A DNA stretch of 64,000 bases, taken from the IMG/VR virus record IMGVR_UViG_3300014204_000161, positions 1 to 64,000 of that record; one strand, given 5' to 3'. This DNA comes from a virus (Duplodnaviria > Caudoviricetes). The translations under genes and the position numbers were made by a program. Under the pieces are notes generated by a model. The model was not told where the DNA came from. It saw only the letters and a program-made list of their open reading frames with translations, and did no database searches. Shown one piece after another: positions 36,816-57,108 of the stretch (the stretch's first letter is position 1; every line of letters starts with the position of its first letter).

Positions 36816-37013
36816 ATGTATTACTTAGTGAAAATCAGGTTCGAAGCGGACCAAGAAAATGGAAAGATCAAAAAAATTCGCGAACAGCATTTGATTCATG
36901 CTGAATCGGTTGGTGCTGCTGAAAAGAGCGCTCTGTCAAGGTTCGGTGGTGGAATCTCTCCGTGTTACATCGAGAGCGTCCAGGAATCGAAGATCATGAG
37001 CGTGATAGAATAG
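36816..37013 (+). CDS. DUF4494-like protein
   Basis: 'YYLVKIRF...KKIREQHLIHAESVGAAE...ES.IMSVI'. Confidence 0.75.
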   Translation: MYYLVKIRFEADQENGKIKKIREQHLIHAESVGAAEKSALSRFGGGISPCYIESVQESKIMSVIE

Positions 37014-37144
37014 ACTCTTCGCAATGATCTAAGTTGGTGAACCTGCTTCCATCGAGAAGCTTCTACCCAAAAGCCGGATATTTGCAAGTAAATCAGTTTA
37101 CTAATGAATCCGGCTTTTTTTGTGTGTGCCGGCTCGAGTGACAT

Positions 37145-37176
37145 AAAAAAAGGTCAGCCTCACGGTGACCTTTTTT
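37145..37176. terminator. bidirectional terminator closing the ncRNA candidate
   Basis: A-run GGTCA...TGACC T-run. Confidence 0.75.
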
Positions 37177-37181
37177 AATAT

Positions 37182-37606
37182 CGTTCAGCAGAACGTACGG
37201 AAGGAATAGGGTTTACCTCCAGTTTGATACTATGCTACAAGTTTACGACGACCTTCAACTCCCTCTGTCGAGGGCGACTCAAAACAGGTTAGCTGCCAGT
37301 CTGAATCGCTGTCGTGTCACCACAACAAATTGAGTGCCTTATCCCACACAGCTGAGAATTATTCGGCCACAAGACGGGGGTCTTGTATACCCGTACGTCG
37401 TTTGCAAGATACCATTGGATTATGCATCCAGTATATCTAAATCAAAACCTCGAGTTCCGATGGTTAGTCGGTTCACGGCGACCGCTTAGTCACTGTCTTC
37501 ATGCGGGGCATCCCCCTAACTCGAACCGTTACTCACTTTTGCAATATGAGTTGTTCCAGCACGCACTAGGACCAGATTCATGACTCCCTGATCCCTCTGC
37601 CAAACG
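37182..37606 (-). ncRNA. large structured ncRNA candidate (~425 nt), family not recognised
   Basis: 11-bp terminal helix (37596-37606 with 37182-37192), many internal hairpins, upstream promoter, downstream terminator, no credible ORF. Confidence 0.65.
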
Positions 37607-37691
37607 CAATAAAATAAATAACTTAAAAATGTATTTGAAGTATGTTCGGAAGTAATTATACCCAGCTTTTAGAAAACGGTTTTGAAAAAGT

Positions 37692-37919
37692 TTAATTTTT
37701 TGTTGGGTAAGGTGAAGTATCGCCGCGTTCCTTTCTGCGAAGGACTGCCATTTGACGGTCTGATGCTCTACCGTGCTGCTTCTTCATGATCGTGTCAAGA
37801 ACTTCTCCTAAGTACTTATCTCCGTAAACTATGGCGCGCCAGTACTTCTCAGATTTTATTTCATGAGGAAACTTGTTCTCGTTCAAGAATTCTTCTACGG
37901 ATTTAACTGGATTTCGCAT
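37692..37919 (-). CDS. small protein with capsid-targeting-like N-terminus
   Basis: 'PVKSVEEFLNEN'. Confidence 0.75.
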   Translation of the reverse strand: MRNPVKSVEEFLNENKFPHEIKSEKYWRAIVYGDKYLGEVLDTIMKKQHGRASDRQMAVLRRKERGDTSPYPTKN

Positions 37920-38163
37920 GCTCTTCTTCTTTTTTGAGGCGCTTAACGTTTACTCTATACCGATAGCGAGAGTAAAACGATAGTCCAAAGAACAGCCCCG
38001 CTATACAGTACATAATGAAATTGGCGTACCAAAGACTCCCAGTCTGAACGTAGAACCAATACTGAACGGCATCGAACCCAAATGGATTGAAGAACAGACC
38101 GATCATCATCGCCCAGTTCGCTAGATTGCCCAGTCTCTTTATTTTCTTTTCTTTCAAGGTCAC
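37903..38163 (-). CDS. membrane protein
   Basis: 'FFNPFGFDA' and two TM segments. Confidence 0.7.
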   Translation of the reverse strand: MTLKEKKIKRLGNLANWAMMIGLFFNPFGFDAVQYWFYVQTGSLWYANFIMYCIAGLFFGLSFYSRYRYRVNVKRLKKEEEHAKSS

Positions 38164-55137: not shown

Positions 55138-57108
55138 TTAATCCTGCGCAGTTTGTTGAGAGGCAGGAGGTTTGGTAGCGACTGTCGAATTTATGGTTTT
55201 TGCAGTCTGATTCTGAGTATTTTCTTTAACAGCTATGCCATCGATCTTTTTCGTCACGAGTCCTTCGTTTTCTTTCGTTAAATTAGTCACCTTTTCCTTC
55301 AATCCGGAAATTGTCTTGTCCTTCTTTGCTGAGATCTCTGCATCCTGCTTGGAAGTAAGAACGCTGTTGTAATTCGCAGATGAAATCCATGTCCCAGTGT
55401 AGAACAGAGTTTCAGTTCCGTCAGTTTTTGATACTAGAGTCAGCATGAATAAGTTATCATTAGTCATCTGGAGAATCTGCAGAGCAGTTTCCTTTGGAAT
55501 TCTGAATGCAACTTCTCCTCGGCTAGGACTCGTTAAGGTAGGGTCTATCAAGGAATCGAACGTGAATTTCGAAGTTTGGCCGAAATTCAGCTTGAAAACG
55601 GAACCGTTGTTCAAGTCGATTCGTTTCTGGTTCGTAGAATCTACCGGGTTCGCTTCGTAGGCCGTGAACTTTACGAAATTATCTACTGGGTCGATTGGCA
55701 GAATCAATCTACCTTGCCCATAAACGACAGAATCGGTTTCGTTTCCAATCTTGTTCAAAGCATTACCGTGGCTCAACATTATGTCCATCTGCTTGATAGG
55801 CACGTATTCCTGAATCACCACCTTCTTGATTACTTTTTCGATTATTGGAACCGGCGGAACTGGAGTAACCGTGACCTGCGTTGATTTTGGAGCGAACAGG
55901 TTGGAAATTTCGAAGTTCTTCTGGACGATCTTGTTGTATACTTTCATTGACTGCGGACCTTCCGGGAGGTTGATCTTCGTCAATTTCTTTCCGTACTTAT
56001 TTGGATTTATGACGCTTAACGAAGCGGTCTTTATGACCTGATCTCCATTGAGAGTATTCATTAGTCTCAATGTGTAATCTATTGACATTGAAACTGCAAA
56101 TCCTGCTTCTTTTAGGATTGGTCGATAGGTAAGAACTTCATCGAATTTATCGTCCTGGTAAATTATAGCATTGCCAGTTGGGTAAAGAGTTGAACCGATT
56201 TGCTCGTAAACTTGTAATTGATGTGAGAATATCCAGTTTTGGTCAGATCCGCTTTCGTTCAATGATGCGATTAGTGAATCAGGAAATGCTCCATTCCATG
56301 TAGCAAAGAATTCGATGTAATCTCCATCTGCTGCTTCCGCTATTTGACAACCAAGAGCATCGAACTTATTTACTTGAGCAACTGACCCCTCATAGTAGTT
56401 GACGAACTTGTAACGATCGTAGGTAACATTGTTCGGAGCATTGTACTCTTCGTAATTAGCTTCAGCCAAGAAGACAGTTACTGGTGCGTTCTTGATGAAT
56501 CCAACGCCATTAGTGATAGCGTATTCGAGTGAGGCTGACCCAAATTGATCGAAATCTGCATCCATCCGTGGAATTGCTGGGATTTTTACGTCAATGTATC
56601 GATCGTAAATGGTATTCGCAATGAATAACGGATGATTGTTGTAAGTCAATAGGTCGAGGGAAGTTGCGGCATCTAACAGTATCGTAGCTAACTGAATCTG
56701 CTTGAGATCGTTCATCTTGTGCTTTGCACCAACGACAACGTTCTCGACTTCCGTAAAATTGAAACCTGAAGCAAAATGGAAACGCAGAGTGTCCATCACC
56801 AAGTTTGCGCTTAACGATGGACTTAATTCTGTTTCCGTGATGTTAGGGTCGTAATCCGTGTAAATTGGAACGAGGGTTGTGTCAACGTAAATGACCTTTG
56901 ACCCACCAAGAGACACGACGCTCAGGTTCCTTGAGTTATGAGTGGTAGCTGAAAACCCATCAGTATTGTAAATTTGAGCAGTATTGACATTTTTGTTGTC
57001 CACCAAGTAGAATTCGGTCGACAATACCGTTGGAGACGGATCGCCAAGCGGATTGGCCCGGTACTCAAGGATACAATAGCTAGAAAGGTTTACGAAGCTA
57101 GAATTCAT
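55138..57108 (-). CDS. large hypothetical structural-type protein
   Basis: 656 aa, beta-rich, in the late block. Confidence 0.75.
   Translation of the reverse strand: MNSSFVNLSSYCILEYRANPLGDPSPTVLSTEFYLVDNKNVNTAQIYNTDGFSATTHNSRNLSVVSLGGSKVIYVDTTLVPIYTDYDPNITETELSPSLSANLVMDTLRFHFASGFNFTEVENVVVGAKHKMNDLKQIQLATILLDAATSLDLLTYNNHPLFIANTIYDRYIDVKIPAIPRMDADFDQFGSASLEYAITNGVGFIKNAPVTVFLAEANYEEYNAPNNVTYDRYKFVNYYEGSVAQVNKFDALGCQIAEAADGDYIEFFATWNGAFPDSLIASLNESGSDQNWIFSHQLQVYEQIGSTLYPTGNAIIYQDDKFDEVLTYRPILKEAGFAVSMSIDYTLRLMNTLNGDQVIKTASLSVINPNKYGKKLTKINLPEGPQSMKVYNKIVQKNFEISNLFAPKSTQVTVTPVPPVPIIEKVIKKVVIQEYVPIKQMDIMLSHGNALNKIGNETDSVVYGQGRLILPIDPVDNFVKFTAYEANPVDSTNQKRIDLNNGSVFKLNFGQTSKFTFDSLIDPTLTSPSRGEVAFRIPKETALQILQMTNDNLFMLTLVSKTDGTETLFYTGTWISSANYNSVLTSKQDAEISAKKDKTISGLKEKVTNLTKENEGLVTKKIDGIAVKENTQNQTAKTINSTVATKPPASQQTAQD

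What the first reader, a model, noticed from the sequence alone, without database searches (positions are those of the whole stretch)
37145..37690. ~425-nt highly structured non-coding RNA with its own promoter and terminator
Seen (minus strand): 5' CGTTTGGCAGA pairs with 3' TCTGCTGAACG (11 bp), closing the whole element. Inside are TTCGAGTT/AACTCGAG (37518-25 with 37449-56), TGGAT-GCATA-ATCCA, ACAAGAC-CCCC-GTCTTGT, GTTGTG-GTGA-CACGAC (GNRA loop) and CCCTC-GACA-GAGGG. A TATAAT-class promoter lies upstream (37655-37682) and a terminator 5 nt downstream; there is no credible ORF in a genome that is otherwise fully coding. I could not match RNase P, tmRNA, SRP or group I/II intron signatures. Inference: a large phage ncRNA of unknown class (scaffold, ribozyme, or protein/sigma sponge).
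Basis: partly seen in the sequence, partly recalled or inferred. Interest (0 to 1): 0.8.

Follow-up and report, generated by a model that had tools for sequence, protein, structure and literature searches.

The report
Two-core manA-type phage RNA gene
The flagged stretch is a real gene for a folded RNA of about 425 bases in a giant freshwater phage; it consists of two cores of the known "manA" RNA (reported in 2026 to build RNA-only cages) joined tip to tip, and it behaves as a free-standing RNA, not a gene switch, with an unknown role in infection.

Summary
Observation confirmed. Window 37606-37182 (minus strand) is a conserved, heavily base-paired RNA with its own promoter (AAAACC-N17-TATAAT) and intrinsic terminator. 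It has no ORF.

It is not an unknown class. Both halves match Rfam manA (RF01745) over the full model but below threshold (40.2 and 36.4 bits against 55.2; E 3e-9 and 1.5e-7).

Covariation was tested in two separate alignments: 10 freshwater sequences (121 pairs, 97% paired, 46 compensatory) and 8 marine sequences (109 pairs, 34 compensatory). They show the halves are not side by side. The long P8 arms of two manA cores are fused tip to tip. The second core is circularly permuted, and an extra helix closes the whole molecule.

The RNA is an optional cassette, present in 12 of 32 related loci of ~250-270-kb phages. In the window a convergent gene follows it, so it is not a 5' UTR switch. Whole contigs from four RNA-library studies consist of this element alone.

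Best reading: a free-standing structural RNA that probably self-assembles as manA does. Its function is unproven.

It is a new variant of a known kind. Earlier unchecked notes of this scan describe similar two-core manA-like RNAs on other DNA. I found no published description.

The parts
37678..37683 (-). Upstream promoter box AAAACC, at the -35 position, 17 nt from the -10 box
   Evidence: AAAACC (AAAAAC in L229) lies 16-17 nt from the -10-like box in the freshwater relatives. Which RNA polymerase or sigma factor reads it is not known.
37655..37660 (-). -10 box TATAAT; the inferred start of transcription is near 37648
   Evidence: A -10-like box is present in every freshwater relative (TATAAT in most, TATATT or TATAAA in others). 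The start site is inferred, not mapped.
37614..37622 (-). Degenerate copy (GUUAUUUAU) of the leader motif GUUCUUUAA, which resembles boxA
   Evidence: The motif sits 5-19 nt 5' of the closing helix in the relatives (abutting or overlapping it in the marine clades). It resembles E. coli rrn boxA UGCUCUUUA (PMC2724277). The window copy has 2 mismatches to the family motif. Tentative.
37182..37606 (-). Structured core of the RNA (425 nt), closed by helix P0 (37606-37596 with 37192-37182)
   Evidence: 121 modelled pairs, 97.4% paired, 46 with compensatory changes.
37568..37595 (-). P1 hairpin; its loop carries the invariant self-complementary UCAUGA
   Evidence: 7 of 9 stem pairs are compensatory while the loop does not vary. 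Marine clades have UAAUUA in the loop instead. L261 has a canonical GACG-type loop.
37450..37566 (-). Core A: 5' strand of outer helix O (manA P2, GUGCG 37566-37562), P3 hairpin (37560-37525), and junction P4 (37524-37518 with 37456-37450) holding P5, P6 and P7 (loop CUAACCA)
   Evidence: Rfam manA hit 37364-37594, 40.2 bits. Helix coordinates; covariation.
37396..37446 (-). 5' strands of the fused P8 arm: X (UUUGAU 37446-37441), side hairpin Lx (37438-37407, with a window-specific tip at 37430-37416), Y2 (37407-37402), Y (CGACG 37400-37396)
   Evidence: X and Y are 100% paired with compensatory changes. Y2 and Lx are seen in each sequence but are out of register in the alignment, so they are tentative.
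37253..37394 (-). Core B, circularly permuted: P9' hairpin (37394-37374), P3' (GAAUAA...UAAGG, 37367-37336), and junction P4' (37334-37328 with 37260-37253) holding P5' (GUGGUG type), P6' and P7' (loop GACA)
   Evidence: Rfam manA hit 37192-37395, 36.4 bits..
37195..37250 (-). 3' strands of Y (CGUCG 37250-37246), Y2 (37240-37235) and X (AUCAAA 37228-37223), then hairpin P9 of core A (37220-37200) and the 3' strand of outer helix O (CGUAC 37199-37195)
37146..37174 (-). Intrinsic terminator (GGUCA...UGACC plus a U-run, preceded by an A-run, so possibly bidirectional), starting a few bases after P0
   Evidence: Relatives have different, still-paired stems followed by a U-run.
36816..37013 (+). 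Conserved convergent 65-aa ORF. It is context, not part of the RNA, and it shows that no gene lies downstream on the RNA's strand
   Evidence: 60-100% identical in relatives; PHROG 19572.

Best explanation
Window 37606-37182 (minus strand) encodes a free-standing, non-coding structural RNA of the manA family. It is transcribed from its own TATAAT promoter and ended by its own intrinsic terminator.

The molecule holds two manA cores. Core A keeps the canonical order: P1, outer helix P2, P3, junction P4 with P5-P7, P8, P9. Its P8 arm has no end loop. It runs on, through a small three-way junction, into the P8 arm of core B. Core B is therefore a circular permutation (P9', P3', P4' with P5'-P7') that lacks P1 and P2. 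An extra helix, P0, clamps the two ends of the RNA together.

Shown: the RNA is real, conserved and folded in this way; it is found in RNA libraries; it is an optional cassette; and in the window's phage group it is not a 5' UTR.

Inferred: it acts in trans as a structural RNA. Canonical manA self-assembles in vitro through loop-loop contacts into decamers and 60-mer cages. By analogy, the fused two-core form probably acts as a pre-joined building block of a higher-order RNA, or RNA-protein, particle made during infection. The self-complementary P1 loop is a candidate dimer contact. What the particle does is unknown.
For: Family:
- Two full-length RF01745 matches at 40.2 and 36.4 bits, E 3e-9 and 1.5e-7. 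No other Rfam family matched at E < 0.3.
- Relatives score up to 56.9 bits.
- The manA signature strings are present (GUG-CYGAAUAA, UAAGG, GUGGUG, UAACCA, GGGUAUAC).

Fold:
- RNAalifold on 10 freshwater sequences gives 118 pairs, 46 of them compensatory.
- The nested model has 97.4% of cells paired, against 37-46% when partners are slid, with 0 of 500 shuffles as good.
- The side-by-side P8 stems forced by the Rfam model are at background, 42.9%.
- The marine alignment gives the same topology independently: 109 pairs, 34 compensatory.
- Single-sequence folds of L146, L256 and L261 recover P0 and Y, and L146 and L256 also X, with unrelated helix sequences.

Free-standing gene:
- Promoter and terminator are conserved.
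- Downstream on the same strand lies only the antisense of a conserved convergent ORF.
- The cassette is present in 12 of 32 loci that share that ORF and is cleanly absent in others.

RNA libraries:
- Whole contigs of 377-430 nt from four studies lie inside 37172-37597 at 95-99% identity.

Assembly analogy:
- bioRxiv 10.64898/2026.07.01.735769.
- The P1 loop is self-complementary with different sequences in two clades.
Against: - Both window halves score below Rfam's gathering cut-off.
- No assembly, oligomeric state or in vivo role has been tested for this RNA. The cage report is an in vitro preprint on single-core manA.
- Fusing the P8 arms removes both L8 loops, which form one of the two contacts of the canonical pentamer. 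Any assembly must therefore differ from the published one.
- Lineage L261 lacks the self-complementary P1 loop.
- L5/L7-type loop complementarity between the two cores is not consistent across subgroups.
- RNA-library contigs give neither strand nor ends.
- In the marine clades the RNA lies about 270 nt upstream of a gp32-like gene with no clear terminator between. A cis role there is not excluded.
Confidence: 0.6

Rival explanations
1. It is a protein-binding RNA: a scaffold of a phage or host ribonucleoprotein, a sponge for a host factor, or a decoy against a host defence. The fold would present invariant loops to proteins rather than to other copies of the RNA.
For: - The presence/absence pattern (12 of 32 relatives) is what accessory host-interaction genes typically show.
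- Many loops are invariant while stems covary.
- The boxA-like leader hints at Nus-factor loading.
Against: - No partner gene travels with the cassette: the filled and empty sites differ only by the RNA gene in the window-type loci.
- There is no likeness to 6S, SRP, tmRNA or other known protein-binding RNAs.
- Nothing here tests protein binding.
Confidence: 0.25
2. It is a cis-acting two-aptamer riboswitch, on the model of the tandem glycine riboswitch, that senses a metabolite and controls transcription or translation of a neighbouring gene.
For: - manA was first proposed as a riboswitch candidate because of its complex fold and its position upstream of genes (PMC2864571).
- There are two similar cores in one RNA.
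- The marine members lie upstream of a gp32-like gene on the same strand.
Against: - In the window group the terminator lies a few bases beyond the closing helix and shares no sequence with it.
- The terminator stems change among relatives with no matching change in the RNA.
- The next feature on that strand is the antisense of a convergent conserved ORF.
- In L221-type relatives the next gene has its own TATAAT box after the terminator.
- No ligand for manA is reported in the papers read here.
Confidence: 0.08
3. It is a catalytic or self-processing RNA, such as a self-cleaving ribozyme or a circular RNA.
For: - The RNA is large and ornate.
- An earlier unchecked note of this scan (e1-5392558) reports joined ends for a different manA-like RNA.
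Against: - There is no match to any ribozyme or intron family.
- No joints were seen in the four RNA-library runs laid (table 5).
- The ends are held in a plain helix next to a standard terminator.
Confidence: 0.03

Closest known systems
manA RNA motif (Rfam RF01745; Weinberg et al. 2010, PMC2864571; cryo-EM preprint 10.64898/2026.07.01.735769)
   Same: - Both halves align to the whole model at E 1e-7 to 1e-9.
- The signature strings are shared.
- The cyclic order of helices around the main junction is the same (P2, P3, P4 with three hairpins, P8, P9).
- Both are phage-borne.
- A -10 box lies just upstream, as in 31 of 36 canonical copies examined.
   Different: - It has two cores in one chain, 425 nt against about 190 nt.
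- The P8 arms are fused tip to tip, so both L8 loops are gone.
- The second core is circularly permuted and lacks P1 and P2.
- There is an extra closing helix P0 and a boxA-like leader.
- It has its own terminator and no downstream gene.
- It sits in ~250-270-kb freshwater, non-cyanophage genomes.
- It scores below the Rfam cut-off.
- The roughly 39 canonical copies found here occur singly.
GOLLD, ROOL and OLE large ornate RNAs (Kretsch et al. 2025, PMC12286853)
   Same: They are large, phage- or bacterium-borne, free-standing ornate RNAs of unknown function that form RNA-only homo-oligomers. The proposed mode of action is comparable.
   Different: There is no sequence or structure match: the Rfam scans gave no hit to these families. 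The core fold is different.
Tandem glycine riboswitch
   Same: Two homologous folded domains sit in one RNA and are held together by extra helices.
   Different: The glycine aptamers lie side by side upstream of an expression platform and a gene. Here the domains are nested through a shared arm, there is no expression platform, and there is no regulated gene in the window group.

Membership tests
manA RNA (RF01745) | Covariance-model score at or above Rfam's gathering cut-off (55.2 bits) | tested here: not met
   The window halves score 40.2 and 36.4 bits. They are nevertheless full-length (model positions 1-192) with E 3e-9 and 1.5e-7. One half of relative G106 reaches 56.9 bits.
manA RNA (RF01745) | Conserved sequence signatures (GUGnCUGAAUAA, UAAGG, GUGGUG loop, UAACCA loop, GGGUAUAC hairpin) | tested here: met
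   All are present but shared out between the two cores. GAAUAA/UAAGG, GUGGUG and GGGUAUAC are in core B; UAACCA is in core A; core A carries the variant GGAACAA/GUAACGG.
manA RNA (RF01745) | Helix order around the main junction: outer helix, P3 hairpin, three-hairpin junction P4, long P8, P9 hairpin | tested here: met
   Core A keeps the order. Core B keeps the same cyclic order but is opened at P8 and lacks the outer helix. Covariation.
manA RNA (RF01745) | A single domain of about 190 nt whose P8 is a closed hairpin with an L8 loop complementary to L9 | tested here: not met
   Local P8 stems are at background, 42.9% paired. The swapped stems X and Y are 100% paired with compensatory changes. 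L8/L9 complementarity and its covariation were seen by eye in canonical copies.
manA RNA (RF01745) | Position in a potential 5' UTR (cis-regulatory annotation) | tested here: not met
   The RNA has its own terminator followed by a convergent ORF. The marine clades are inconclusive.
manA RNA (RF01745) | Self-assembly into closed homo-oligomers (decamer or 60-mer) in vitro | not testable with these tools
   Known only from the preprint on single-core manA.
GOLLD / ROOL / OLE / raiA / HEARO and other large Rfam ncRNAs | Match to the family covariance model | tested here: not met
   No match at gathering threshold in the window and none at E <= 10 in 36900-37950.

The most novel reading that the evidence does not exclude
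The two-core RNA is a natural, covalently pre-dimerised building block that assembles inside infected cells into a closed RNA-only particle, with a geometry different from the single-core manA cages. Giant phages would carry it as an optional organelle-like device, for example to sequester or protect a cargo.
Probability: 0.25. Interest if true: 0.85.

Novelty: new variant of a known kind. Interest (0 to 1): 0.6.

Why it matters
manA has had no known function since 2010, and a 2026 preprint reported that it forms RNA-only cages in vitro.

This variant adds three points:
- A manA-type RNA can be an independent gene, with promoter, boxA-like leader and terminator, rather than a 5' UTR element. 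That argues against the riboswitch reading for at least this branch.
- Nature has fused two cores through the arm whose loop makes an intermolecular contact in the canonical pentamer. This offers a direct test of how the assemblies are built and whether assembly is the selected function.
- The family reaches beyond marine cyanophages into ~250-270-kb freshwater, sludge and groundwater phages, where it is an optional cassette that turns up in metatranscriptome libraries of several studies.

It also gives structural biologists a 425-nt target with a secondary structure well supported by covariation.

Tried and rejected
Searches that found nothing:
- Rfam at gathering threshold over the window: no hit.
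- tRNA/tmRNA scan: none.
- blastn of the element against 50,697 phage records: no match.
- The consensus promoter/terminator scanner flagged neither the promoter nor the terminator. I read both by eye and confirmed them by conservation.
- Relatives L003 and L004 have no manA hit. L003's record has the empty site.
- A literature search for a Bacillus-type boxA string found nothing.

Readings rejected:
- L245, from the relaxed junction pattern, is a chance match in coding DNA.
- The side-by-side two-domain model is rejected.
- A kissing contact between the P7 loop of core A (UAACCA) and the P5' loop of core B fits 5-7 bp in one freshwater subgroup. It does not fit in the window's subgroup, where P5' ends in a GUGA tetraloop, so I do not claim it.
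- Other loop-loop pairings (P6 with P6', P9 loop with the P5 stem) do not covary.
- The boxA-like 9-mer is not enriched in the window (22 matches against 26 expected). Its only support is its fixed position in the family.

Limits of the RNA-library data:
- No RNA-library contig covers the flanking genes. That is an absence of cover and is not used as evidence.
- No joints were seen, so there is no sign of circular RNA in contigs.

Full report
**What is there**

On the minus strand, the 75-aa ORF ends at 37692. After it come a promoter-like AAAACC-N17-TATAAT (37683-37655), an AU-rich leader, and a 425-nt stretch (37606-37182) with no ORF of 30 aa or more. A hairpin plus U-run follows at 37174-37146.

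The single-sequence fold is more stable than shuffles (-146.6 kcal/mol, z = -2.87). The window is part of a 78.9-kb viral contig judged 29% complete. Neighbouring genes are phage-like: ThyX, a phosphoesterase and a DNA ligase.

**Family**

Rfam at gathering threshold finds nothing. With E-value reporting, the region gives two full-length matches to manA (RF01745, cut-off 55.2 bits). One covers 37364-37594 at 40.2 bits, E 3e-9. The other covers 37192-37395 at 36.4 bits, E 1.5e-7. They overlap by one hairpin.

manA is a ~190-nt motif from marine metagenomes, T4-like cyanophages and Photobacterium, proposed in 2010 as a riboswitch candidate (PMC2864571). A 2026 preprint reports that it forms RNA-only decamers and a 60-mer cage through kissing loops L5-L7' and L8-L9'. 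That preprint never mentions tandem forms.

**Relatives**

- A pattern built on canonical manA retrieved about 39 canonical copies scoring 89-197 bits, always one per contig. It also retrieved one contig with the same double sub-threshold hit.
- Patterns built on the joint between the halves found more double-hit contigs in viral and metagenome collections.
- A search with the neighbouring 65-aa protein found 32 related loci, several in genomes of 250-271 kb. Twelve of the 32 carry the RNA.
- Four complete ~270-kb genomes have no manA-like hit at all.
- At empty sites the 65-aa ORF and the 75-aa ORF are separated only by one shared terminator. The RNA gene, with its promoter and terminator, is therefore an optional cassette.
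- There are at least four deep lineages: the freshwater group of the window (10 distinct sequences), L261/L262, and two marine groups.
- The marine group sits next to gp32-like and UvsX genes of a T4-like phage.
- A large window protein is weakly like one of Flavobacterium phage MaF61 and of published huge phages. The host is unknown.

**Structure**

RNAalifold on the 10 freshwater sequences predicts 118 pairs, 46 of them with compensatory changes. My model of 121 pairs has 97.4% of cells paired, against 37-46% when partners are slid by 1-3 columns. It has 46 compensatory pairs against 3-9 when slid, and no shuffle of 500 does as well.

The topology is nested, not two domains side by side:
- P0 (37606-37596 with 37192-37182) encloses the P1 hairpin and the manA outer helix (GUGCG 37566-37562 with CGUAC 37199-37195).
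- Inside come the P3 hairpin and three-hairpin junction of core A.
- Next is stem X, UUUGAU at 37446-37441, which pairs with AUCAAA at 37228-37223, about 215 nt away.
- After a small side hairpin comes stem Y, CGACG at 37400-37396 with CGUCG at 37250-37246. Y encloses a manA-type P9 hairpin, a P3 hairpin and a second three-hairpin junction.

X and Y are 100% paired with compensatory changes. The local stems that the Rfam model forces are at background, 42.9%.

Compared with the manA consensus, X is the basal stem of core A's long P8 hairpin. Y and Y2 are the two stems of core B's P8. The two cores are therefore joined tip to tip through P8, and core B is a circular permutation without P1 and the outer helix.

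The marine alignment gives the same topology on its own, with 109 pairs, 34 of them compensatory. Single-sequence folds recover the same long-range helices with unrelated sequences:

| Lineage | P0 | X | Y |
|---|---|---|---|
| L146 (marine 1) | UUUGAAAAUA/UAUUUUCAAA | ACUUUUAG/CUAAAAGU | ACCUCUU/AAGAGGU |
| L256 (marine 2) | not listed | ACUUGAAG/CUUCAAGU | ACCUUAU/AUAAGGU |
| L261 | GUGAAAG/CUUUCAC | not listed | AAUCGUUU/AAACGAUU |

Many invariant G-U pairs fix the RNA strand as minus.

**Transcription unit**

- Every freshwater relative has a -10-like box (TATAAT in most, TATATT or TATAAA in others) with an AAAACC-like box 16-17 nt upstream. The pattern occurs twice in the window against 0.09 expected.
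- The terminator stems differ among relatives but stay paired and are followed by U-runs.
- In the window group, the next feature on the RNA's strand is the antisense of the conserved convergent 65-aa ORF at 36816-37013.
- In L221-type relatives, a new TATAAT box and a start codon follow the terminator.
- A conserved leader motif, GUUCUUUAA, lies 5-19 nt before P0 in the relatives and abuts or overlaps it in the marine clades. It resembles E. coli rrn boxA UGCUCUUUA (PMC2724277). The window's own copy is degenerate, so this stays tentative.

**RNA libraries**

Twelve listed runs recorded as RNA hold 28-41% of the sampled words of a 621-nt query. I laid four runs from four studies. Each gave a whole contig of 377-430 nt lying inside 37172-37597 at 95-99% identity.

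One sludge run also has a 374-nt contig at depth 459 that shares only the joint region, so it is another family member. Contigs give no strand and no ends. I count this as presence in RNA libraries and a weak hint of a discrete transcript.

**How it most likely works**

The gene layout rules out a 5' UTR switch in the window group. The fold is a manA derivative. The one property shown by experiment for manA is self-assembly through loop contacts.

I therefore favour a trans-acting structural RNA that assembles with copies of itself, or with proteins. The fused P8 arm would replace a contact that is intermolecular in single-core manA.

One candidate contact is the P1 loop. It is invariant and self-complementary in the freshwater group (UCAUGA) and in both marine groups (UAAUUA), but not in L261. 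Other loop pairings I tried were not consistent. The function of any assembly is unknown. The presence/absence pattern fits an accessory role in dealing with the host.

**Novelty**

I found no published description of a two-core manA. Earlier unchecked notes of this scan describe similar 'double-core manA-like' RNAs in other genomes, so this kind is recurrent in phages. I class it as a new variant of a known kind.

Noticed in passing
window 53245, 43946, 28152, 18398, 17421 (minus strand): A recurrent promoter-like box (G)TAGTATAATA lies 6-23 nt before the start codons of several genes, including the DNA ligase. L261's RNA gene uses the same box. The class and timing of these promoters are unknown.
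   Followed up: partly
L124-L164 (canonical manA loci): In 31 of 36 canonical manA copies a -10-like TATAAT/TATATT box lies just upstream of P1. In 10 of 36 a U-rich run follows the 3' end at once, and two are followed directly by a tRNA gene. Canonical manA may therefore often start its transcript and need not be a 5' UTR element.
   Followed up: partly
L124, L127, L129, L132, L151 (about 10-60 nt after canonical manA): A recurrent short element, AGACCUAAGAUGCAACU...GGGCAGAUGGUCU plus a U-run, follows canonical manA. By position it may be the abiF motif that was annotated about 100 nt after manA in cyanophage S-CREM1 (PMC9964418). I did not scan it.
   Followed up: no
window 37357-37410, run X14: An activated-sludge RNA library holds a 374-nt contig at depth 459 that matches only the joint region of the element. 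It is a different and apparently very abundant member of the same two-core family.
   Followed up: no
window 36816-37013 (+) and 37692-37919 (-): Two small conserved ORFs flank the cassette, of 65 aa (PHROG 19572) and 75 aa. Related phages differ only by the presence or absence of the RNA gene between them, at a shared GCCGG...CCGGC terminator.
   Followed up: partly
window 55138-57108 (-): The 656-aa protein has no PHROG family. It is 27% identical to a protein of Flavobacterium phage MaF61 and 24-27% identical to proteins of 460-640-kb uncultured huge phages. This is a faint hint of a Bacteroidota host.
   Followed up: no
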